A DNA stretch of 45,019 bases from Escherichia phage vB_EcoS-22664B1, in the sequence record MZ234008.1; one strand, 5' to 3'. Position numbers and translations under genes: made by a program. The notes below the pieces were generated by a model. That model had not been told where the DNA came from, searched no databases, and worked only from the letters and a program-made list of their open reading frames with translations. This document shows, in pieces, positions 3,471 through 41,910 of this stretch (the first letter of the stretch is position 1; each line of letters begins with the position of its first letter).

Positions 3471-4668
3471 ATGCACCCGCAAACTAAAATTACCGACGAG
3501 CAATTGATCGCTGAATTGCAATCTGGCACTACCTCGAAAGATATTGCGAAGAAATACGGCATTGCCCTTCGAAATGTCTATATGCGCAAAGCCCGCCTGT
3601 CGAAGAAAGGCATTGGTCACGGTAACGATGCCGTAATCCGTAAGCGCGTTGCCGATGGCTTCGGCGTTAAGCGTGTATCAGCCCTGGTGCGCGGCAATGG
3701 CGAAGAGGTCATGTCCTGGGTCATCACCGAGCAAGACAAGGAGCGCCAGCTTGAAGCAATGCGCGCCGTTGTCGAGGGCATGAATAGCGAAATCACACCG
3801 GCAGCACCAGTGAGCGCTCCGCCAGTCCCGATCCAGGCGCTTGACCTGCTTAACCTGTATACCGTGTCGGACTTCCACCTGGGAATGTTGGCGTGGGGCG
3901 AGGAGACTGGCGAGGACTGGGATATGGCAATCGCTGAAGACCTGTTCTACCGCTGGTTTGTCGAAGCCTTCGCCCGCGCACCGGACGCTGGAAGACCTGT
4001 TCTACCGCTGGTTTGTCGAAGCCTTCGCCCGCGCACCGGACGCTGGCACTGCCGTAATCAATATTCTCGGTGATATGGCGCATTTTGACAGCCTCGACGC
4101 CGTCACGCCAGCCAGTGGTCACGTACTGGACGCAGATACCCGCTACCAGAAACTGGTCCGCTACATGATTCGCATGGTGCGCAACGTGGTTGAACTGGCG
4201 CTGCAAAAACACCATAAGGTCAAACTGTTAATCGTCCAGGGTAATCATGATGAGTCCGGTATGATTTGGCTGGCTGAGATGTTCAATACCCTGTACGAGA
4301 ACGAGCCGCGCGTTGATGTGGACACGTCCCCGGACGTTTACAAAATGGTGCAGCACGGTAAAACAACGCTGTTCTTCCACCACGGACACAAAGCACGCTT
4401 TGACGCCATCGAACCGGTCATGATTTCTAAATTCAGACAGGCTTTCGGGTCCAGTGAGTACAGCTACGCGCACGTGGGCCACTTGCACCACCAGAAGATT
4501 GTTGAATCCCGCAACATGATTGTTGAACAGCACCGGACCCTTGCCGCGAAAGACGCATATGCGAGCCGCGGCGGTTGGATGTCTGGTCGTAGTGCTAACG
4601 TCATCACCTATAGCGCCAACTACGGCGAAGTAGCGCGCTTAACCATTAGCCCGGAAATGTTGAAATGA
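3471..4668 (+). pseudogene. HTH domain + calcineurin-like metallophosphoesterase gene, split by a 55-bp tandem duplication (frameshift)
   Basis: N-terminal HTH-like segment; metallophosphoesterase motifs SDFHLG, GDMAHFD, GNHDE, HHGH, GHLHH. ORFs 3471..4073 and 3841..4668 are the same gene in two frames; removing one 55-bp copy (3936-3990 or 3991-4045) restores one ORF of about 380 aa. Confidence 0.6.
3936..4045. repeat. perfect tandem duplication, 2 x 55 bp
   Basis: Unit gaagacctgttctaccgctggtttgtcgaagccttcgcccgcgcaccggacgctg occurs twice in tandem; cgctg microhomology at the junction. Confidence 0.9.
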
Positions 4669-6941: not shown

Positions 6942-8462
6942 ATGACCGTTAACGTTGACAACCAGCACCCACTCTATGCGCGCATCGCGCAGGAATGGAA
7001 AATGATCCGGGATTGCGTAGCAGGGGAGCGCGCCGTGAAGGCGTGCGGCCCCTTATACCTGCCACACCCAGCCAGTGGCGACAATACCGACCCGAAAGCA
7101 CGGGCGCGATATAAGGCATATAAGCAACGTGCTGTATTCCTGAACGCCACCGCACGTACACTTAACGCGCTGTTAGGCGTTGCCTTCGCTAAGCCGGTTA
7201 GCGTGGACCTTACCGGGGCGATGGCTGACCTGATTGATGACGTAGACGGCAGCGGGATGCCACTGGCGCAACTCCTGCGCGGTGCTATGTCTGAAGTGCT
7301 GCAATCTGGCCGCGCGGGCTTTATGGTGGACTACGACCGCCAGGCTAACTTTGATGAACTGGGTAACGTAGTGCCGCAGACCGCCGCCGAGATGGCGACG
7401 CATCGCCCGCTTATCCGCCTGTATACGGCAGAACAGATCATCAACTGGCGGCAGACCCACGGTGTTGATACGCTAATCGTGCTGAAGGAGACGGACGAAA
7501 TCAGCACCGAAGACCCGGACGACTTTGCAAACCACGAAGTAACGATCTGGACCGAGCTTCGCATGGTTGACGGCAAGGCACACGCCCGCCGCTGGTTTTA
7601 CAACGCGGACACGTCCGAGGTGCAAATGGACTTGCCGCGCGGATTCACCCGCACCGACCTTGTACCTTTGGTAGATGCTGCCGGTCGGGCGCTTACTCAA
7701 CTGCCATTTTGCTGGTGTGGTGCAGTGGACAACAACGCCACGCCGGACGCCGCGCCGCTGGCGGATATTGCATCCATCAACATTAAGCACTACAACGCTG
7801 AGGCGGACGTCGCCGAGATTGCGCACATCGTGGGCCAGCCTACCCTGGTTGCCACGGGCTTGACTCAATCATGGGCCGACAAAAACCTGAAGGGTGGCAT
7901 CGCTCTCGGTGCGACTAAGGGCGTTATCCTGGGCCAGAACATGGACGCTAAACTGATTCAGGCCGAGGAGCGCAACTTGTCTGTTGCACTTTGTGAGCGC
8001 CGCGAATTGCAGATGGCTAAACTGGGCGCGGCCCTGGTTGAGAAGGGGACCGCACCGAAGACGGCAACCGAAGCGGCCTACGATGCGCAGACTGATAACA
8101 GTATCTTGTCGCTCATTGCCGGTAACGTTGAGAAGGCTTTCAACCGTGCGCTGCAAATCGTCCAGCTATTCACCGGTGACACCGCAGTGCAGCAAGTCAC
8201 GTTGAACAAGTTCTACACCGAAATCACGGTTGACGCGCAGCTTATGACCGCAATGATGTCAGGTGTGCAGACTGGCACGGTCCGACTGGCTGACTTTATC
8301 AAGTGGATGATGGCGCAGGGCGTTATCGACGACTCGCAAACCGTCGAGCAGGTGGAAGACGAATTGCGAAATCAGAATCCATTGCCTCAAATGTCCCCTG
8401 ATGCGGTAGAATCTACCGAAGAAGACCCGGACAAGGTAACGGACAATGGCGAGAACAATTAA
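6942..8462 (+). CDS. portal protein
   Basis: 506-aa ORF immediately after TerL with acidic C-terminus; size and synteny typical of portal. Confidence 0.75.
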   Translation: MTVNVDNQHPLYARIAQEWKMIRDCVAGERAVKACGPLYLPHPASGDNTDPKARARYKAYKQRAVFLNATARTLNALLGVAFAKPVSVDLTGAMADLIDDVDGSGMPLAQLLRGAMSEVLQSGRAGFMVDYDRQANFDELGNVVPQTAAEMATHRPLIRLYTAEQIINWRQTHGVDTLIVLKETDEISTEDPDDFANHEVTIWTELRMVDGKAHARRWFYNADTSEVQMDLPRGFTRTDLVPLVDAAGRALTQLPFCWCGAVDNNATPDAAPLADIASINIKHYNAEADVAEIAHIVGQPTLVATGLTQSWADKNLKGGIALGATKGVILGQNMDAKLIQAEERNLSVALCERRELQMAKLGAALVEKGTAPKTATEAAYDAQTDNSILSLIAGNVEKAFNRALQIVQLFTGDTAVQQVTLNKFYTEITVDAQLMTAMMSGVQTGTVRLADFIKWMMAQGVIDDSQTVEQVEDELRNQNPLPQMSPDAVESTEEDPDKVTDNGENN

Positions 8463-9997: not shown

Positions 9998-10762
9998 TTA
10001 GCGCGGAATACCGCAAATCTCGTTTAACGTCTTCACGTCCAGCGCTACTGCCGTTGACTTCGGCTTGTCCGGGTATGGAATGAACTGTTCAACTTCAGGC
10101 CACGCCGCGATCAGCTTCTTGTCAGTATTGTGCATATCCAGCACGCCGGTAACAGTTAGTTTGAACGCGTCATACTTCGCACGCAATTCACGGCGGGCCT
10201 TGTCGTTGCGGTCCAGGCGCTTGCAGAAATCATGATCTGCCGGGTAGTCTACGCGACCGCGCGGGAGATATATCGGCAGCGCGGCCCCGTTCTCGTCCAC
10301 TTCACACACTGACGCGAGCATAACTTCCTCGTACCCCGGTACTATATCGCTGAGATCCGGCGCGAGCGTATTCATATATTTCTCTTCCCAGTATCCGCGG
10401 TGCTGGCGGTAGCGGTATCCGTCGCCGCTCATATGCAGGGTACGGATGTTACCGCCTGCGTTGATTTCGAAAGTGGAGCAGTAAACGCGTCCAATGCCTT
10501 TCGTCCGGTCCTTGTTATAGCTGTACGACGCTTTCTCGGTGTAAACGCTGACGCCGTACATCTGCGACTGGTTATCGCGGATTTCTGCGATATATGCGCG
10601 TAGCTCGGCGAACGTGTGAATGCCTTTTGGCATACAGTGCAACGTAATGTCATACGCCAGGTCGCGAGAGTCCATCATGATTTTTTTGGCTTCAGTCGCG
10701 ATTTCGTGGTCGCGCAGGATGTTAGCCAGAATCTGGTTTTTAATGTCTTTTGTCAGTCTCAT
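9998..10762 (-). CDS. hypothetical protein (254 aa), opposite-strand gene island in structural module
   Basis: Intact ORF; start MRLTKD with GAGGA RBS-like sequence; own putative promoter at 10792-10821; no motif recognised. Confidence 0.6.
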   Translation of the reverse strand: MRLTKDIKNQILANILRDHEIATEAKKIMMDSRDLAYDITLHCMPKGIHTFAELRAYIAEIRDNQSQMYGVSVYTEKASYSYNKDRTKGIGRVYCSTFEINAGGNIRTLHMSGDGYRYRQHRGYWEEKYMNTLAPDLSDIVPGYEEVMLASVCEVDENGAALPIYLPRGRVDYPADHDFCKRLDRNDKARRELRAKYDAFKLTVTGVLDMHNTDKKLIAAWPEVEQFIPYPDKPKSTAVALDVKTLNEICGIPR

Positions 10763-26932: not shown

Positions 26933-28975
26933 ATGGCAGCGGGTACACTATCCGTAACGAATAACAGCACCGCGGTGACTGGAGACGGCACAACGCTTAC
27001 CGCGCTGAAGGCTGGCGACTTCCTGTCGCTGGTAGTAGGGCAAGTCCCTTACACTATTGCTATTGCATCCATTGAGAGCGACACCGCGCTTACACTGGCG
27101 CTGCCGTTCGATGGCCCAACGGCAACCGGCCTCGCATGGGATAGCGTGGCGCGCGATACCATGTCCCTTGCAACGATGGGCGTAACCGTCCAGGCGCAGA
27201 AAGCACTACGCTTGATGATCGCGGATGAAAACAACTGGCGTGCAATCTTCGGCGACGCTGAAGAAGTCACGGTAACGCTGCCAAACGGGCAAGTTATGCA
27301 GGGAATGTCATGGGGCTACCTGTCATCCTTGTTGAAGGAAGTAGACCCCGTCGAAATGCGCGACCTGCAACAACAAGCCGCCGCATCGGAAGCCGCCGCG
27401 CTGGTGTCGCGCAATGAGGCCGAAGGCTTCAAGAACGATGCCAATGCCATCAAGACGCAGACCGACCAAATCAAGACTGACACGCAGGCAATCCACGACG
27501 CCACCAATACGATCAAGACGCAGACCGACCAGATTAAGACCGATACGCAGTCTATCAAGGACCAGACCGACCAGATTAAGACGGATACTGGCGTTATTCG
27601 CGATGAAGCCAATACTGCGAAGACTGACGCGCAAGCCGCCAGCACTGCCGCGCAGGGATTTCGCGATCAGGCCGAAGAATGGGCGCAAAGCGTAAACGCG
27701 GATAATCTGCTAACTAAATCCGGCAACCTTGCAGGCGTTGCCGATGTGCAGACGTCGCGCACCAACCTCGAACTGGGGGAGGGTAACGAGCCTATTTTTA
27801 AGGGTGCTCTCGCTGTTAAATCAGCCCCCGACACCGTATCGGCACAGGGCGGAATGTTCCAGTCTAAGCTAAAGAATAGCAACGGTGAGGACGTGGTAAC
27901 GACGCAAAGCTACGCAGAAACACAACTAGGGACCGGAAAGCACACGATCGGCGTAATCACGCCTTCGGGGGCACATTACTATCAACTCGACGTCGAAGGT
28001 AACTTTAACGGATTCAAGCGCCTGTCGTCTGCGCAGGGTGGCGAATTACTTCTGAACGGCGTCGATAGTAACACCGTGCAGCTACTGTCGCTTAACCCAC
28101 CAAAGCCGAACGACTATACCGGATTCACGCGGTATAACTGGCAAAATAGCGCGGTGTTTACCGGGCCGATTCGTCAGGGAGGGACGGGGCTTGAAGCCTA
28201 TGAGGTCTACGTCCTGAATGCTGGCGTGGCGGAATGGCGCTACCGGTTTAGACCCGATGGAAAGATGTCCGCCAGACGACTTATCGCCGAAGGTTTCCAG
28301 ACCGGCTGGGACCAGCCTAACAACTACGGGGACAGCGGTGTGTGGCTATCTGACGTCGGAAATAACGACGGCGGCTGGGTTCCTGCAATCTCCTGGCAGT
28401 CCCAATCAACCGGCGGTTACCCTATCCGCGCCACGTGGGGGCTTATCTCTCAGGGCACGGCGAACTGGCCCCGTGCGGCATTGCGATGCCGAGGGGATGG
28501 CGAAAACTGGACAAACTTCGAGTTCGTCGTTAACAGTTGCGATATCCAGGTCAGCGGTACATTCGGCGCGTACACATTTTCCAAAGCGCCTACGTCCGAC
28601 CGTGACCTGAAGCACGATATTAAGTACACGGAAGGGAAAGAAAGCTACGATCGAGTGATGCAGTGGCTTCCCACAATGTTTAAGTATAAAGGGTCGGAAA
28701 TCCAGCGCTATGGCCTTATCGCGCAGGACCTGGTGAAAATCGATCCGCAATACGTGAAGATTATCCCCGGCGCACTTAAAAACCCGGACCTCGTAGGGAC
28801 TGAAGGATTCAAAGCCGAAGACGGCGACTACTACGACGACACGCTGGCACTTGACAGCAACGTCATGTTAACAGATATGGCGTGCGCGATGGTCTTCATG
28901 GGGCGTAAAGTGGAAGATATGCAGAAAGAACTGGAGGAATTGAAAGCTGCCGTAGCGGCACTGACCAAAGCATAA
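26933..28975 (+). CDS. tail fibre with C-terminal intramolecular chaperone (peptidase S74-like) domain
   Basis: C-terminus SDRDLKHDIKY...YGLIAQDLVKIDPQYV matches the auto-cleaving chaperone domain seen in T5 L-shaped fibres and endosialidases; central TDQIKTDTQ repeats; start MAAGTLSV with GAGGA RBS-like sequence. Confidence 0.8.
   Translation: MAAGTLSVTNNSTAVTGDGTTLTALKAGDFLSLVVGQVPYTIAIASIESDTALTLALPFDGPTATGLAWDSVARDTMSLATMGVTVQAQKALRLMIADENNWRAIFGDAEEVTVTLPNGQVMQGMSWGYLSSLLKEVDPVEMRDLQQQAAASEAAALVSRNEAEGFKNDANAIKTQTDQIKTDTQAIHDATNTIKTQTDQIKTDTQSIKDQTDQIKTDTGVIRDEANTAKTDAQAASTAAQGFRDQAEEWAQSVNADNLLTKSGNLAGVADVQTSRTNLELGEGNEPIFKGALAVKSAPDTVSAQGGMFQSKLKNSNGEDVVTTQSYAETQLGTGKHTIGVITPSGAHYYQLDVEGNFNGFKRLSSAQGGELLLNGVDSNTVQLLSLNPPKPNDYTGFTRYNWQNSAVFTGPIRQGGTGLEAYEVYVLNAGVAEWRYRFRPDGKMSARRLIAEGFQTGWDQPNNYGDSGVWLSDVGNNDGGWVPAISWQSQSTGGYPIRATWGLISQGTANWPRAALRCRGDGENWTNFEFVVNSCDIQVSGTFGAYTFSKAPTSDRDLKHDIKYTEGKESYDRVMQWLPTMFKYKGSEIQRYGLIAQDLVKIDPQYVKIIPGALKNPDLVGTEGFKAEDGDYYDDTLALDSNVMLTDMACAMVFMGRKVEDMQKELEELKAAVAALTKA
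27447..27590. repeat. imperfect tandem repeats inside tail fibre gene (cagaccgaccagattaagaccgatacg units)
   Basis: Three to four nucleotide repeats encoding (A/T)IKTQTDQIKTDTQ. Confidence 0.7.
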
Positions 28976-35522: not shown

Positions 35523-37814
35523 TTACTTCCTATACCGATACATGATGTCGCCTTCGGCGGCAAGTGGGAAACCTTTCGCCCATATAGGCAGGTCACACAT
35601 CAGCGCGCAAAGCTCCTCGGTCGTGTAATCGTCGGTGTCCGGCACTTCGGTGATCAATTCATCGTGCACTGACAGGACGATTTCATAGCCCGCAGCTTCA
35701 ACACCAGGCATGGACCATGCGAGAATATCGCGGCACAACGCCTGTACGATGTTCTCCGTAAGTTTGCCGCCGTAGGTGTACTGGAATCCCCACTGGCGCG
35801 TCGTCTGATTCTCGCCCTGGTATTTGATGCGGGTACTGGTGCGCTTCTTGCCGGTGTCTTCGTCAATCTCGGTAGTGACAGACAGCGCGATTCCGGGGTA
35901 GCTCATGATTCGCCCTGACGGCAACTCAACCTTCAGCCACCAGCCCGCGGCGTTCGGGTCGTCGCGTTCCTCGTCAAAGGTGGGGTCGTGCTTCGCCTTC
36001 GTGCGCACAATCTTGAGCGCTTTCTTGCCATCCGGGCGAACGTTCGCGCCAGCCCAGTATGCCTTACCTGGATTGCGTATCGCACATAACACCGCCTCCT
36101 CAAGCTCGGCCCAAAAGGCTACGGTCTTCGGGTGAGATTCACGCCACATACGTTTGATCGCGTCGCAGGTCAACCACACGTTTTTAGGCAGTATGTAAGT
36201 CGGGCGCTCGTCTTTCTTGCCGGGCTTCGGCGGGCGCTTCGCTTCGTTGATGCGGGCAAACTCATAACCGCGTTTAGCCGCCGCCCAAATATGATCGGGG
36301 AATGTTCCCTTCATGACGTCAGCCATTGCGTACAGGTCGAGGCCCAGGTTTTTAGCAAACTGCAAGAACGCCGCGACGCCGCCACCATAGCCCAGTCCCA
36401 ATTCACACGCCTTACCAATCTGGCGTAGGTCTTTGCGGTTGGCTTTGATGTAGTCCGGGTCAAGGCCAAACATCTTACCGGCAGTTTCACAATAGATATC
36501 GCGTCCGGCCTTAAACACCATAAGCGCGGTTTTCTCGCCAGCGATCCAGGCAAGGCCACGCCCTTCCACGTTGGAGTAGTCCGCTACAACAAACTTCTTG
36601 CCCTTAGCCGGGATAATGCACCCGCGAACGGTCGAGGCGGTTAGCTTCGATATGTCATACGCCCAGTGCGCGGTCCCGCGTAACAGGGAGTTGATGCCGT
36701 TGGTGAGCATGTGCGACCGTACCCAAAACGAGACGTCGCTCTCACCTTCGCGGCGCTTAATCTTCCCTTCGTGGTCATCACTGTACTCGCCACGTGCCAG
36801 GTTTTGAGGCTGAAAGCCTTTACCGGCCCAGCGTAGTGTGCGCTTTGCCCCACCATACTGAAGACAACCACGGCGGCGACCATCGGCAGAAAGACCATTG
36901 ACGAGCGGATTGTATTTAGTCGATGCCGTTGATGACGCGCCGAGGCGCATTTCAATAAGCACTTTGCCCTCGTCGGGGAAGTCTGGATCTTCCAGCAAAT
37001 CATTCAGCGTGGATTTCTGCGCGTTGTGAATGGTGAACGCCGGGGCAATATCACGCAGGATTGGCAGGAAGTCATTACCGGTCAGTTTACCGCCGAACAG
37101 TTCCCAGGCTTCTTCCTTCAATTCTTCTTTGTGCACCTGCACCGCCTTGATCGCGGCGTTCGCCAGGTCAACGTCCACATAGAAGCCACGGTCGTTAATC
37201 AACTGGTCGATACGCAGGATTTCATCTTCCTTCGGTGAGTTGCCCCAGTCCGGTATTCGCCAGTAGACTTCACGCATTGCGATAATATCCAGCGCGGCAT
37301 AGCGCAGGAATTTAGCCCATTCTTCAGGGTGAGTCTCGCGCGTGTAGCGGCGGATTTTGTAGGTCTTAGGGGTCGGCTTACAAAATCGCTTAATCAGCGC
37401 CTTGCCTGCCTTATCCTTCGCGTGCTCTGCGTCAACGCCCAGCACCTGGCATTGCATATCGAGGCCACCCGGCAGCGCGTGACGAAAGGCCATAATCATC
37501 GTATCTTCGATCTGGCTTACCGGCAGGTCGATGCCCCACTTTTCACGGATAACCAGGCGGTCAAACAGGAGGCCGTTAGCCATCACTATTTTTGCTTTCT
37601 TGCGGGTTACCTGGCGTAGCGCCTTGCGCAGTTCACGCGGCATCGTGGGGGATTCAGTGGCGTCCCATGTCTGCACGCGGCCCTCGTCGATGGCGTAGGT
37701 GCAAATCATAATCTCGGTGGATGGGTGTTCTGCATAGGCATACGCACCTGCTTTCTTCAGGTCCACCCCGCTATATGTCTCGGTGTCAAGAAACAGGCGT
37801 TCGAAGTCTTTCAT
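35523..37814 (-). CDS. DNA polymerase, family A (Pol I-like) with 3'-5' exonuclease domain
   Basis: Exo motif FLDTETYS; polymerase motif A VVADYSNVEGR, motif B K...LGLGYGGG, motif C LSVHDEL; 763 aa. Confidence 0.9.
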   Translation of the reverse strand: MKDFERLFLDTETYSGVDLKKAGAYAYAEHPSTEIMICTYAIDEGRVQTWDATESPTMPRELRKALRQVTRKKAKIVMANGLLFDRLVIREKWGIDLPVSQIEDTMIMAFRHALPGGLDMQCQVLGVDAEHAKDKAGKALIKRFCKPTPKTYKIRRYTRETHPEEWAKFLRYAALDIIAMREVYWRIPDWGNSPKEDEILRIDQLINDRGFYVDVDLANAAIKAVQVHKEELKEEAWELFGGKLTGNDFLPILRDIAPAFTIHNAQKSTLNDLLEDPDFPDEGKVLIEMRLGASSTASTKYNPLVNGLSADGRRRGCLQYGGAKRTLRWAGKGFQPQNLARGEYSDDHEGKIKRREGESDVSFWVRSHMLTNGINSLLRGTAHWAYDISKLTASTVRGCIIPAKGKKFVVADYSNVEGRGLAWIAGEKTALMVFKAGRDIYCETAGKMFGLDPDYIKANRKDLRQIGKACELGLGYGGGVAAFLQFAKNLGLDLYAMADVMKGTFPDHIWAAAKRGYEFARINEAKRPPKPGKKDERPTYILPKNVWLTCDAIKRMWRESHPKTVAFWAELEEAVLCAIRNPGKAYWAGANVRPDGKKALKIVRTKAKHDPTFDEERDDPNAAGWWLKVELPSGRIMSYPGIALSVTTEIDEDTGKKRTSTRIKYQGENQTTRQWGFQYTYGGKLTENIVQALCRDILAWSMPGVEAAGYEIVLSVHDELITEVPDTDDYTTEELCALMCDLPIWAKGFPLAAEGDIMYRYRK

Positions 37815-37981
37815 TGCTTTATCCTCACTACTGCGTCAGCGCTGCCGATCATGGAGAAGATACCATCCGACAAGGCAATCTCTTCGCCGTTGTTGCGAAT
37901 CTCGGCAACGGTAAAATACTCGCCCAGCAATTTGGACCATACACGCATTCCGACTTTTACTTCACTGGCTTTAATACGCAT
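37811..37981 (-). CDS. small hypothetical protein (56 aa), translationally coupled to DNA polymerase
   Basis: ATG with AGGA upstream; its TGA overlaps the polymerase ATG (ATGA). Not in ORF track (<60 aa). Confidence 0.35.
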   Translation of the reverse strand: MRIKASEVKVGMRVWSKLLGEYFTVAEIRNNGEEIALSDGIFSMIGSADAVVRIKQ

Positions 37982-37993
37982 TTTTCATTGTCC

Positions 37994-38020
37994 TAATAAA
38001 AAGCCCGCAATAAGCGGGCT
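37994..38020 (-). terminator. rho-independent terminator on - strand (agcccgc ... gcgggct + U-run)
   Basis: On - strand the hairpin is followed by TTTTATT; sits directly after the in-frame stop of the SSB tail frame (38040-38042). Confidence 0.55.
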
Positions 38021-38039
38021 TGAATAGTGGGCTTTGCCC

Positions 38040-38773
38040 TTAACGGCGGCGACGTTTACGTGGTGCTTCGTCTTCGTCGTCGTCGTCCTCGTCTTCGTCA
38101 TCACGACGTTTGGACTTCTTAGCCTTGCGCGGTGCTTCATCTTCGTCATCGTCATCACGACGTTTGGACTTCTTAGCCTTGCGCGGTGCTTCATCTTCGT
38201 CATCGCGTCGCCCAGGTCGTCATCGGAACAAGAAGACCCGCCGCCACCGAAGGAGTCACCATCGTCACGGAAGCGAAGACCCATCAAACCCGCACCTAGA
38301 CCTTTGCCGTTGGTGTTGTTCCACGCCCAAATATCCAGGGACACGTTGCAATAACAACCGGAATAGATTTCCTGGCCTTCGATCTCGTCGCCGTCGATAG
38401 TCAGACCCTGTTCGGTCTGCTTCTCGCCCAGTGACGTTTGGATGTTAGGCTGTTTGAACGATTTGGCGTTGATGTACAACATTCCTTCGAATTCTTCGGT
38501 TACTTCGTCGCGCTCGTCACCGTCGCGAACTGCGCATTCCTTAGAATCCTGGGCGTAGTGGCGGTCCATCCACTTATCGGCGTTCTTCTCGGATTTCAGC
38601 TTGTCGGTAAGCACTGCGCGCGCTGCCGCTTCCACTTTGTCCACCTGCGGATCTTCTTTATCAAGAAGAATCACGGCACGGTATGCCGGTTTTTGTCCAT
38701 CCTGTTTAGGGGTATCACGTTCCCAAATTTTCAGGAAGCATACGCGTACATTTTTCAGGTTGACTTTAGCCAT
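38040..38773 (-). CDS. ssDNA-binding-protein-like (T7 gp2.5 / DUF2815-like) with charged repeat tail; -1 frame discontinuity near 38200-38219
   Basis: Body (start MAKVNLKNVRV, GAGGA RBS-like) is in the ORF-track frame. The C-terminal tail (DDEDEAPRKAKKSKRR x2 then DDEDEDDDDEDEAPRKRRRR) is in another frame ending at TAA 38040-38042; its third module differs from the first two only by synonymous changes in that frame. Confidence 0.5.
38098..38205. repeat. perfect tandem duplication, 2 x 54 bp, inside SSB-like tail
   Basis: Unit tcatcacgacgtttggacttcttagccttgcgcggtgcttcatcttcgtcatcg repeated head-to-tail; a degenerate third copy lies at about 38044-38097. Confidence 0.9.
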
Positions 38774-38836
38774 TTTCATTTCCTCATTTCGCATGTATCG
38801 GGGTTATTGTGAGCCACCCCGTTCGGCTTGGTTGCT

Positions 38837-41144: not shown

Positions 41145-41663
41145 TTAATCTTCTAATTCGAAATAAGTTTCGACGATTGCTTTTAATTCCTGGTGGAACT
41201 CTTCCACGTCGTCATCTTCCAGCTTGGCAACGGATTTAATTTCGAATTCTTCCAGCAGGTCGTCAAATTCGTCGTTTGCGTCGTCGTCATCACCGCCAGC
41301 AATAATAGCGGCATACTGCTTGATTTCGTCGCGCATCTCTTTCAGCGGATCGGCATCTTTCTTGCCTTTACCTTTCGCCGGTGCTTTCTTAGATTTCGCC
41401 GGGGCTTCTTCTTCGTCGTCCGCGTCGTCTTCTTCTACGGCTTCTTTCTTAGCCTTGCCCTTTGCTGGCGCTTTTTTTGTCTTAGCCGGTGCTTCGTCTT
41501 CAGCGTCGTCATCTTCGACTACTTCTTCTTTTGCCTTGCCCTTAGCCGGGGCTTTCTTCGCTTCCTGTTTACCAACGGCAGCGCCAGCAGTTTCATAATG
41601 CTTAGCGATGGTTTCCAGTGCTACTACGCCGCGTGTGATCAGGTTTACGATTTGCTCAAACAT
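41145..41663 (-). CDS. charged-repeat protein (172 aa; repeated DEAPAK-KKAPAKGKAKK modules), first gene of leftward early operon
   Basis: Start MFEQIVNLITRG with GGAGA RBS-like sequence; internal nucleotide repeats 41363-41550 encode alternating acidic/basic modules. Confidence 0.55.
   Translation of the reverse strand: MFEQIVNLITRGVVALETIAKHYETAGAAVGKQEAKKAPAKGKAKEEVVEDDDAEDEAPAKTKKAPAKGKAKKEAVEEDDADDEEEAPAKSKKAPAKGKGKKDADPLKEMRDEIKQYAAIIAGGDDDDANDEFDDLLEEFEIKSVAKLEDDDVEEFHQELKAIVETYFELED
41363..41550. repeat. imperfect tandem repeats (about 66-bp unit, about 2.5 copies) within charged-repeat gene
   Basis: Units containing cttagccggtgcttcgtcttc...gtcgtcatcttc recur; they encode the charged protein repeats. 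Confidence 0.7.
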
Positions 41664-41859: not shown

Positions 41860-41910
41860 ATAATAGATTGGTTGCAGGTGGGGTGTCAACAACTAATTTC
41901 AAAAAAAAAA
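41860..41910 (-). promoter_or_regulatory. putative strong early promoter for leftward operon (-10 TATTAT, 18-nt spacer with TGCAACCAA, -35 TTGACA, upstream A/T tract as UP-like element)
   Basis: On - strand: T10 tract (plus 41901-41910), TTGACA (41889-41884), spacer, TATTAT (41865-41860). Confidence 0.5.

What the first reader, a model, noticed from the sequence alone, without database searches (positions are those of the whole stretch)
38040..38230. SSB-like gene: 54-bp in-frame tandem duplication plus a -1 frame break between body and charged tail
The body is in the ORF-track frame, but that frame continues through a terminator hairpin to a stop at 37985. The -1 frame between 38219 and 38040 encodes DDEDEAPRKAKKSKRR, DDDDEDEAPRKAKKSKRR and DDEDEDDDDEDEAPRKRRRR, then TAA, then the terminator. 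The third module differs from the first two by synonymous third-position changes only in this frame (gat/gac, ccg/cca, cgc/cgt, aag/aaa), so this is the selected coding frame. Joining body to tail needs a -1 shift within about 20 nt (38200-38219), where there is no canonical slippery heptamer; a 1-nt indel or sequencing error is most likely. The 2 x 54-bp duplication (38098-38205) is a recent expansion of the tail modules.
Basis: seen in the sequence. Interest (0 to 1): 0.65.

Follow-up and report, generated by a model that had tools for sequence, protein, structure and literature searches.

The report
Frame-broken SSB gene with repeat tail

Summary
The window is Escherichia phage vB_EcoS-22664B1 (MZ234008). 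The minus-strand gene starting at ATG 38773 is a Gp2.5-like / Enc34-type SSB (PF10991, PHROG 112).

In about 100 relatives the OB-fold body and a modular acidic/basic tail ending in ...APRKRRRR* lie in one frame. Here one extra CG (CGCG, 38204-38207) puts the tail in the -1 frame. The annotated ORF therefore reads a 73-aa basic out-of-frame extension through the terminator to TGA at 37987-37985.

Nothing supports programmed frameshifting. There is no usable slippery site, and no relative has a two-frame arrangement.

The sister phage 101114B2 is 99.97% identical and lacks the CG. It carries a different 8-nt duplication 110 nt downstream. The two lesions sit exactly at the two outer edges of the perfect 54-nt-period repeat that only these two records share. 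The window also carries an untrimmed 55-bp assembler-overlap duplication elsewhere.

I slightly favour a finishing or consensus artefact (about 0.5) over a genuine slippage mutation (about 0.4). Only raw reads or PCR can decide.

The 54-bp repeat is real. Relatives have one to four tail modules. The polybasic-ended tail departs from canonical acidic SSB tails. Overall the finding is ordinary.

The parts
38207..38773 (-). OB-fold body of the Gp2.5-like / Enc34-type SSB, codons 1-189: MAKVNLKNV...FGGGGSSCSDDDLGD. It includes the Gly linker and the short acidic SDDDLGD segment.
   Evidence: PF10991 scores 108.4 bits over residues 3-186. PHROG 112 matches at E=1.4e-51 on the intact homologue. PDB DUF2815 4KLK matches at E=8.6e-13 and Enc34 ORF6 5ODJ at E=3.5e-10. 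All relatives start at MAKVNLKNV.
38204..38207 (-). The lesion: CGCG where every relative has a single CG. This 2-nt tandem duplication shifts everything downstream by +2, so the tail lies in the -1 frame relative to the body.
   Evidence: Alignment A1. BLAST against 101114B2 and against WFI.
38157..38204 (-). Tail module 1 in the conserved frame: DDEDEAPRKAKKSKRR.
   Evidence: Translation. The same module is in frame with the body in relatives.
38103..38156 (-). Tail module 2: DDDDEDEAPRKAKKSKRR. It is an exact DNA copy of module 1 plus GATGAC.
   Evidence: Relatives carry a diverged module here, DDDDEDDKPRKSKKSKRR.
38040..38102 (-). Terminal tail module DDEDEDDDDEDEAPRKRRRR and its TAA stop (38042-38040). 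This is the normal end of the gene.
   Evidence: Of 63 distinct intact tails, 46 end in RKRRRR.
38095..38205 (-). Perfect repeat: a 57-nt segment present twice, 54 nt apart (38205-38149 = 38151-38095). Its 5' edge coincides with the CG insertion. Its 3' edge coincides with the 8-nt duplication in sister phage 101114B2.
   Evidence: TRF, sequence reading, genome comparison.
37985..38206 (-). Out-of-frame extension as written in the record: 73 aa, AMTKMKHRARLRSPNVV...HYSSPLIAGFLLGQ, net charge +16, followed by TGA at 37987-37985.
   Evidence: GenBank annotates exactly this 269-aa product (P0001, 22664B1_061).
37996..38021 (-). Intrinsic-terminator-like hairpin AAGCCCGC-TTATT-GCGGGCTT plus a T-run. 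It lies between the normal SSB stop and the 56-aa gene, and inside the frameshifted ORF.
   Evidence: WFI annotates the same site as a terminator. SECphi4 Borvo escapers map to it.
37811..37981 (-). Downstream 56-aa gene (gp40). Its ATG starts 4 nt after the frameshifted ORF's stop ends, and its own stop overlaps the DNA polymerase start.

Best explanation
The gene is the ordinary replication/recombination SSB of a Dhillonvirus. Its normal product is one polypeptide: an OB-fold body, a Gly linker, a short acidic segment, and then one to four charged modules (an acidic block followed by a PRK..KRR basic block) ending in APRKRRRR.

In this record one extra CG at 38204-38207 disconnects the tail. 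This is not a recoding signal.

I think it most likely that the extra CG is an error of assembly finishing or consensus calling at the edge of a perfect 57-nt repeat that is just longer than the assembler's k of 55. On that reading the phage really makes the intact 243-aa protein ...SDDDLGDDDEDEAPRKAKKSKRRDDDDEDEAPRKAKKSKRRDDEDEDDDDEDEAPRKRRRR.

Shown: the insertion, its uniqueness, its position at the repeat edge, and the pipeline's other artefacts.
Inferred: that the insertion is absent from the phage DNA.
For: - Every other relative examined has a single frame, apart from three that carry their own separate frameshifts: 101114B2, Ioannina and a Logan contig. The single-frame set comprises 15 IMG/VR loci (a 16th, L018, stops at a contig end inside the tail); GenBank loci L002-L004, L021-L028 and L043; 9 further contigs plus one with a gap of Ns inside the tail; and about 40 unique GenBank records whose anchor-to-anchor span is 1 mod 3.
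- The window and 101114B2 are 99.97% identical over 45 kb, with only six differences. Two of those are frameshifting micro-duplications in the SSB tail.
- The window's CG sits at the 5' edge of the perfect repeat (38205/38206) and 101114B2's GATGACGA sits at its 3' edge (38095/38094). A process that operates on repeats, such as assembly or read mapping, explains both placements. Two independent mutations would land there with a chance of roughly 0.5% or less.
- The same record carries a perfect 55-bp tandem duplication at 3932-4046. It is absent from 101114B2 and WFI and breaks a 380-aa gene.
- A third genome from the same study, 101114BS4, still has a 127-nt terminal direct repeat. So SPAdes k-mer overlaps were left untrimmed, and k was 55 for this genome.
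- The methods were Nextera/MiSeq, SPAdes, then Geneious map-to-reference and Prokka (PMC8614997).
- Metagenome assemblies also break inside this tail: an N-gap in L035 and an adaptor-terminated contig in L018.
- The tail is conserved down to about 45% identity. C-terminal tails are essential in the well-studied SSBs (T7 gp2.5, as cited). A viable tail-less phage is therefore a priori unlikely.
Against: - I could not derive a concrete artefact mechanism. De Bruijn mis-joins at a 54-nt-period repeat can only change the length by multiples of 54. My overlap-trimming models did not reproduce a 2-nt or an 8-nt insertion cleanly.
- Illumina consensus rarely invents non-homopolymer indels.
- Both lesions are tandem micro-duplications, which is the classic signature of replication slippage.
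- Away from the repeat and the 55-bp duplication, the record shows no unpaired frameshifting indel in conserved coding sequence relative to WFI, so it is otherwise accurate.
- Independent frameshifts in the same gene segment occur in records from other sources: Ioannina against its 99.6% sibling LM40P1, and Logan run ERR1097471.
Confidence: 0.5

Rival explanations
1. Genuine mutation. The phage DNA really carries the CG duplication, arising from replication slippage or imprecise template switching in a GAY-rich, repeat-laden tail. The virus then makes an SSB whose polyampholyte tail (net charge -4) is replaced by a 73-aa strongly basic extension (net +16). The tail would be dispensable for plaque formation, and the variant was fixed by a plaque-purification bottleneck or by selection on the ST131 isolation hosts. 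A predicted side effect is that ribosomes run through the terminator hairpin to a stop that ends 4 nt before the 56-aa gene's ATG, which should weaken termination and couple translation into the 56-aa/DNA-polymerase operon.
For: - Both lesions are tandem micro-duplications.
- The data are Illumina, and the record is otherwise clean.
- Two of six genome-wide differences between the sister phages fall in about 180 nt. The chance of that is about 2e-4 if differences were spread evenly (my arithmetic).
- A third difference lies in the tail-fibre gene (27899). That pattern is typical of adaptive change.
- Four independent frameshifts are known in this gene segment (window, 101114B2, Ioannina, ERR1097471). 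All are of the class that reads through to the same stop.
- Both frameshifted phages were viable and had the widest plaquing host range of the six Dhillonviruses in their study: 41% and 38% against 1-27%.
- The terminator/56-aa junction is a proven target of selection. SECphi4 Borvo escapers map there.
Against: - The placement of both lesions at the repeat edges is unexplained by simple slippage.
- The tail is strongly conserved.
- All experimentally selected escape mutations in the homologous SECphi4 and SECphi18 SSBs are OB-fold missense changes or promoter changes. None is in the tail.
- Deleting the T7 C-tail does not affect Retron-Eco8 activation.
- The host-range similarity of the two phages is expected from their 99.97% identity alone.
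- The bias towards one frameshift class may be an ascertainment effect, because my query contained the out-of-frame tail.
- The inferred intact allele has never been observed, so its existence is only an inference.
Confidence: 0.4
2. Programmed -1 ribosomal frameshifting or transcriptional slippage joins the body and the tail in this phage.
For: The tail lies in the -1 frame, the overlap window is short (38219-38204), and the gene is likely highly expressed. There is no positive evidence.
Against: - The only canonical X_XXY_YYZ heptamer in the body frame, G_GGT_TTG at 38291, lies upstream of two stops in the -1 frame (38258-38256 and 38222-38220).
- There is no homopolymer of 5 nt or more in 38300-38040.
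- No relative has a two-frame arrangement.
- The state differs from a 99.97% identical sister by a simple 2-nt insertion.
Confidence: 0.02
3. Contingency locus. The repeat tail would be a hypermutable on/off switch, in which reversible micro-duplications toggle the tail (and the read-through of the terminator) within phage populations. This is a special case of the genuine-mutation rival.
For: Module number varies from one to four among relatives. Frameshifts recur in near-identical pairs. Tandem duplications revert easily (established knowledge).
Against: Only 3 of roughly 110 unique GenBank genomes are affected. There are no population data. Each case could equally be an error. No defence system is known to sense the tail.
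Confidence: 0.05

Closest known systems
Enterobacter/Hafnia phage Enc34 ORF6 SSB (founder of Pfam PF10991, PDB 5ODJ/5ODK/5ODL)
   Same: It shares the same Pfam family (108 bits) and detectable sequence homology to the solved chain. It has an OB-fold body followed by an unstructured C-terminal segment, and it lies in a phage replication module.
   Different: The Enc34 tail is short and purely acidic, with 16 of its last 29 residues D or E (PMC5686142). The Dhillonvirus clade appends one to four acidic-then-basic modules and ends in RKRRRR. In this record the tail is out of frame.
Bacteriophage T7 gp2.5
   Same: It has the same fold class and the same role (ssDNA binding and annealing); PHROG 112 is named after it. 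An AlphaFold model of the SECphi4 homologue was reported to superpose on 1JE5. Its tail is flexible and mediates autoinhibition and partner binding.
   Different: There is no detectable sequence match here. The T7 tail is acidic and ends in an aromatic residue (...EADEDGDF) that is essential for growth. This tail is a blocky polyampholyte with a polybasic end.
SECphi4 / SECphi18 SSB (QJI52528.1), a Dhillonvirus orthologue shown to trigger Retron-Eco8 and implicated in ShosTA escape
   Same: It is an orthologue at about 85-90% DNA identity with the same modular tail.
   Different: Its tail is in frame. All of its selected escape mutations are OB-fold missense changes (T56P, N152H, F106V, T21P, F95L) or promoter changes, not tail frameshifts.
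vB_EcoS-101114B2 gp 060 (QZI79050.1) and phage Ioannina SSB (WFD55461.1)
   Same: Both are isolate-specific frameshifts in the same gene segment, entering the same alternative frame and ending ...HYSSPL(I/Y)AGF(L/F)(L/I)GQ.
   Different: The lesions differ: an 8-nt duplication after module 2 in 101114B2, and a 1-nt G deletion in the GGC-repeat linker in Ioannina.

Membership tests
Gp2.5-like / Enc34-type phage SSB (Pfam PF10991, PHROG 112) | Significant match to the family profile | tested here: met
   PF10991 scores 108.4 bits (cut-off 26) over residues 3-186 of the window protein. In an intact homologue the match covers residues 3-193. PHROG 112 matches at E=1.4e-51.
Gp2.5-like / Enc34-type phage SSB (Pfam PF10991, PHROG 112) | Homology to solved family members with the variant OB fold | tested here: met
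   phmmer against the PDB gives 4KLK (DUF2815) at 8.6e-13, 4JG2 at 1.4e-11 and 5ODJ (Enc34 SSB) at 3.5e-10. The fold itself was not modelled here.
Gp2.5-like / Enc34-type phage SSB (Pfam PF10991, PHROG 112) | Acidic, unstructured C-terminal tail ending in a hydrophobic or aromatic residue | tested here: not met
   Distant PF10991 members end in ...DDDFLN...ADDLV or ...DDDIFG. The Dhillonvirus clade keeps an internal SDDDLGD segment but continues with acidic/basic modules and ends in RKRRRR. The window's annotated product ends in ...AGFLLGQ after a basic out-of-frame stretch.
Gp2.5-like / Enc34-type phage SSB (Pfam PF10991, PHROG 112) | Location in a phage replication/recombination module | tested here: met
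   A DUF2800 / PD-(D/E)XK exonuclease lies upstream, and the 56-aa gene plus a family A DNA polymerase lie downstream.
Gp2.5-like / Enc34-type phage SSB (Pfam PF10991, PHROG 112) | Preferential ssDNA binding | not testable with these tools
   This needs biochemistry. The SECphi4 orthologue acts as an SSB-type trigger of Retron-Eco8.
Programmed -1 ribosomal frameshift site | Slippery heptamer X_XXY_YYZ in the zero frame within the overlap of the two frames | tested here: not met
   The only heptamer, G_GGT_TTG at 38291, precedes two stops in the -1 frame. There is none in 38219-38040.
Programmed -1 ribosomal frameshift site | Two-frame arrangement conserved in homologues | tested here: not met
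   All other relatives encode body and tail in one frame, apart from three isolate-specific frameshifts of their own.
Programmed -1 ribosomal frameshift site | Downstream stimulatory RNA structure | not tested
   This was made irrelevant by the two failed features above.
Phase-variable (contingency) repeat locus | Repeat tract inside the coding sequence, with frame-changing length differences between near-identical genomes | tested here: inconclusive
   Repeats are present, and there are frame-changing differences in two sibling pairs. Each could be an error in the record.
Phase-variable (contingency) repeat locus | Reversible switching within a population, with a phenotype | not testable with these tools
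   This needs deep sequencing of lysates and fitness assays.
Untrimmed assembler-overlap artefact | Perfect tandem or terminal duplication whose length equals an assembler k, absent from siblings | tested here: not met
   The feature is met by the 55-bp duplication at 3932-4046 and by the 127-nt terminal repeat of 101114BS4. It is not met by the 2-nt CG insertion itself. The 54-nt period is the natural module length, seen at 88% identity in WFI and 101114BS4.

The most novel reading that the evidence does not exclude
The repeat tail of Dhillonvirus SSBs would be a slip-prone switch. Recurrent, independent frameshifts of one class (four cases so far) would swap the conserved polyampholyte tail for a basic extension. 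They would also drive ribosomes through the terminator that gates the 56-aa/DNA-polymerase operon. Phage populations would then hold tail-off variants with altered replication-gene expression and altered visibility to host defences. The same junction is where SECphi4 escapes Borvo.
Probability: 0.06. Interest if true: 0.7.

Novelty: already known. Interest (0 to 1): 0.25.

Why it matters
In practical terms, the GenBank product 22664B1_061 (269 aa, annotated 'hypothetical protein') and its sister 101114B2_060 are mis-described. The gene is the phage SSB, and its 3' end should be flagged as a frameshift and checked against the reads. These phages were characterised as candidates for urinary-tract-infection therapy.

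In biological terms, the survey shows that this clade of T7-type SSBs does not have the textbook acidic tail. Instead it has a copy-number-variable array of acidic and basic blocks with a polybasic end, and I found no paper describing this.

If the frameshifts turned out to be real, they would show that an SSB C-terminal tail is dispensable for phage growth. That would contradict the T7, T4 and E. coli paradigm. It would also link tail loss to read-through of a terminator known to be under selection by a defence system.

Tried and rejected
1. Programmed frameshift or transcriptional slippage. Rejected for the reasons given under that rival explanation.

2. Defence escape through the tail. I read the escaper tables of Stokar-Avihail et al. 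All Dhillonvirus SSB escape mutations for Retron-Eco8 and ShosTA are OB-fold missense or promoter changes. Deleting the T7 tail does not affect Retron-Eco8. There is therefore no support, and the idea is kept only as speculation.

3. De Bruijn-graph arithmetic to derive the 2-nt and 8-nt insertions from k=55 overlaps. Mis-joins give only multiples of 54. Trimming models gave deletions, 4-nt duplications or a wrong period. One model reproduces the window sequence only if the overlap is 57 nt, which I could not justify. The artefact mechanism is therefore unproven.

4. The idea that the 54-bp repeat is itself a k-1 artefact. Rejected, because relatives from other assemblies have the same 54-nt period at 88% identity.

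5. Exact look-up of the reconstructed intact proteins (243, 250 and 225 aa) among 15 billion sequences. None was found, so there is no independent sighting of the intact allele.

6. A search for the phage's own reads in Logan. P0001 is known only from NCBI.

7. An odd span for P-GXEC-L2P5 in the mod-3 survey. This turned out to be a triplicated segment downstream; the CDS itself is intact.

8. Failed or wasted calls. The first Pfam call was rejected over coordinates. My regex-based module count over-counted, so module numbers are given from explicit examples only. PMC13210406 is not held. One search fetched only 300 bases by mistake.

Full report
**Identity of the window and the gene.**
The annotated 269-aa product of the ORF at 37985-38794 is an exact match to 'hypothetical protein 22664B1_061' of Escherichia phage vB_EcoS-22664B1, on a 45,019-bp contig. 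This phage is a wastewater Dhillonvirus isolated on the ST131 strain DSM22664. It was sequenced with Nextera/MiSeq, assembled with SPAdes, checked with Geneious map-to-reference and annotated with Prokka (PMC8614997).

The gene lies on the minus strand between a DUF2800/PD-(D/E)XK exonuclease on one side and a 56-aa gene plus a family A DNA polymerase on the other. It scores 108 bits against Pfam PF10991 (Enc34_ssDNA-bd, cut-off 26). It matches PHROG 112, 'Gp2.5-like ssDNA binding and annealing protein'. It also matches the solved DUF2815 and Enc34 ORF6 chains. The conserved start is ATG 38773 (MAKVNLKNV), as in all relatives. The Prokka start at 38794 is an upstream in-frame ATG.

**Check of the observation.**
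- The body frame runs through a terminator-like hairpin (38021-38001) to TGA at 37987-37985.
- The -1 frame is open from 38219 and encodes three charged modules and then TAA at 38042-38040.
- TRF reports a 54-nt period with 2.2 copies at 38089-38205. A 57-nt segment is present twice without a mismatch.
- The core DDEDEAPRK of the last module differs from the first two only at five synonymous third-codon positions.

**What relatives show.**
About 150 phage genomes match this region. In every one that I could read, body and tail form a single ORF...FGGGGSSCSD(D/E)DL(G/D)(D/N)DDEDE(A/S)PRK(A/S)KKSKRR...DEAPRKRRRR*. The exceptions are discussed below. The evidence comes from four sets.
- 15 IMG/VR loci. 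A 16th locus, L018, stops at a contig end inside the tail.
- GenBank loci L002-L004, L021-L028 and L043.
- 9 further contigs found through the neighbouring 56-aa protein, plus one with a gap of Ns inside the tail.
- About 40 unique GenBank records for which I used the length between two conserved anchors. It is 1 mod 3 in all of them, 0 mod 3 in the window and in 101114B2, and 2 mod 3 in P-GXEC-L2P5. The P-GXEC-L2P5 value comes from a triplicated segment downstream of an intact CDS.

The same kind of tail persists in homologues down to about 45% identity. Examples run from one module (phage welsh, 202 aa) through two (EP23) and three (CHD5UKE2) to four (Haito_Bas83). More distant PF10991 proteins have the canonical short acidic tail ending in a hydrophobic residue. 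The tail frame is therefore the selected one.

**The lesion.**
Against every relative, the window has one extra CG: ggcgaCGCGatgac instead of ggcgaCGatgac, at 38204-38207. Removing it restores ...SDDDLGDDDEDEAPRK....

**Programmed recoding is excluded for practical purposes.**
- The only canonical slippery heptamer in the body frame (38291) lies upstream of two stops in the -1 frame.
- There is no homopolymer run in the zone.
- No relative has a two-frame arrangement.

**The sister genome.**
Phage 101114B2 (MZ234014) comes from the same study and differs from the window at only six places in 45 kb:
1. a 55-bp tandem duplication in the window (3932-4046);
2. a SNP at 10658;
3. a SNP at 27899;
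4. a 1-nt indel at 41900;
5. the window's CG insertion;
6. an 8-nt duplication (GATGACGA) in 101114B2 at window position 38094/38095.

The 8-nt duplication also shifts the tail by +2, but after module 2. So two of the six differences are frameshifts inside about 180 nt of one gene.

The two lesions lie exactly at the two outer edges of the perfect repeat, at 38205/38206 and at 38095/38094. Only these two records have the perfect repeat. In WFI and 101114BS4 the corresponding modules are 88% alike, with the same 54-nt period.

**Artefact or mutation?**

In favour of an artefact:
- The edge placement of both lesions fits a process that operates on repeats.
- The 55-bp duplication is absent from 101114B2 and WFI, and it breaks a conserved gene.
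- A 127-nt terminal repeat is left in a third genome of the same study. This shows that SPAdes k-mer overlaps were not trimmed and that k was 55 for this genome. That is just shorter than the 57-nt repeat.
- Other assemblies break inside this tail.
- The tail is strongly conserved, and C-terminal tails are essential in the classical SSBs.

In favour of a real mutation:
- Both lesions are tandem micro-duplications.
- The data are Illumina.
- The record is otherwise free of unpaired frameshifts relative to WFI.
- I could not derive either insertion from graph or trimming models.
- Two further independent frameshifts exist in the same segment. Ioannina has a 1-nt deletion in the GGC-repeat linker relative to its 99.6% sibling LM40P1. 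A Logan contig also carries one.

I put the artefact at about 0.5 and a genuine mutation at about 0.4. The reconstructed intact protein is not in the 15-billion-sequence collection, and the reads are not in Logan, so this cannot be settled here.

**Consequences if the lesion is real.**
The product would be 262 aa. The tail's net charge would change from -4 (24 D/E, 20 K/R) to +16, and the whole-protein pI from 4.7 to 8.7.

The alternative frame is stop-free only because the charged tail has no codons with T at the second position. The third frame is full of TGA stops. So its openness is compositional and does not indicate an overlapping gene.

Translation would continue through the terminator to a stop that ends 4 nt before the ATG of the 56-aa gene. 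By inference, this should weaken termination and couple translation into the 56-aa/DNA-polymerase operon.

That junction matters. In SECphi4, escapers of the Borvo system, whose trigger is the DNA polymerase, carry changes at the base and in the loop of this same hairpin, as well as a frameshift in the 56-aa gene.

The experimentally selected escape mutations in the orthologous SSB for Retron-Eco8 and ShosTA are all OB-fold missense or promoter changes. T7 tail deletion does not affect Retron-Eco8. A defence-escape role for tail loss therefore has no direct support.

**Comparison with what is known, and verdict.**
The gene is a member of the T7 gp2.5 / Enc34 ORF6 family by sequence. Its clade departs from the family's canonical feature of an acidic tail with a hydrophobic end. 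Instead it has a copy-number-variable polyampholyte array with a polybasic end. I found no paper describing this.

The frame break itself is an isolate-specific or record-specific lesion. Interest is low. The residual interest lies in the possibility that tail-off variants are real and recurrent.

Noticed in passing
window 3932-4046: There is a perfect 55-bp tandem duplication (TRF period 55, 2.1 copies). It is absent from the 99.97% identical 101114B2 and from WFI, and it frameshifts the homologue of the 380-aa gene WFI_00011 / 101114B2_012. The length equals a default SPAdes k. Another genome of the same study (101114BS4, L046) still has identical first and last 127 nt. It is very probably an untrimmed circular-contig overlap left in after the genome was rotated.
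   Followed up: yes
window 37811-38021 (terminator hairpin 38001-38021 and 56-aa gene 37811-37981): In SECphi4, escapers of the Borvo defence system carry +AA and C>A at the base of this terminator stem, an inverted loop, and an E21 frameshift in the orthologous 56-aa gene (positions 8292-8305 of MT331608, mapped on L044). The SSB/56-aa/DNA-polymerase junction is thus an expression control point under selection by a defence system.
   Followed up: partly
L042 (OQ589852, phage Ioannina) 620-760 against L043 (OZ035746, LM40P1): The Ioannina SSB (WFD55461.1, 284 aa) is also frameshifted into the same alternative frame. The cause is a 1-nt G deletion in the GGTGGCGGCGGCGGT Gly linker relative to a 99.6% identical sibling. 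Its neighbouring gene is annotated 'mature oligodendrocyte transmembrane protein', which suggests automatic annotation.
   Followed up: yes
L027 (PQ843332, P-GXEC-L2P5) about 960-1175: The end of the SSB tail plus the terminator (…DDDEDEAPRKRRRR*GQSPLFKPA…) is present three times in a row downstream of an intact 224-aa SSB. The record is 88.6 kb, about twice a Dhillonvirus genome. This is probably a concatenated or mis-assembled record.
   Followed up: partly
L035 (ENA scaffold) tail region; L018 (IMG/VR contig end): One metagenome scaffold has a run of Ns inside the SSB tail. One IMG/VR contig stops inside the tail and ends in Nextera adaptor sequence (translated as ...VSYTHLRAHET). The tail repeats are a recurrent assembly break point.
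   Followed up: no
window 38771-38794: Prokka started the SSB at the upstream in-frame ATG at 38794 (MRNEEMK-MAKV). Relatives start at MAKV (38773), which has a GAGGA Shine-Dalgarno 9 nt upstream. WFI has a 1-nt difference at about 38775 that puts the upstream ATG out of frame.
   Followed up: partly
window 41351-41558 and 27449-27583: There are two further tandem repeats: 87-nt period x 2.5 copies (75% identity) and 63-nt period x 2.1 copies (77% identity). Both are conserved in 101114B2, WFI and 101114BS4. The first lies in the region upstream of the gam-like and primase-helicase genes and could hold iterons of a replication origin. The second is inside the tail-fibre gene.
   Followed up: no
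window 27899, 10658, 41900: These are the only other differences from 101114B2: an A/G SNP in the putative tail-fibre gene, a C/A SNP in a hypothetical gene, and a 1-nt A indel. At 41900 the window agrees with WFI.
   Followed up: partly
window 37979-37990; L021 1268-1444: A five-codon mini-ORF (ATG AAA AAT GCG TAT TAA) overlaps the start of the 56-aa gene. 101114BS4 has one A fewer, which fuses that ATG in frame and gives an annotated 58-aa product.
   Followed up: no
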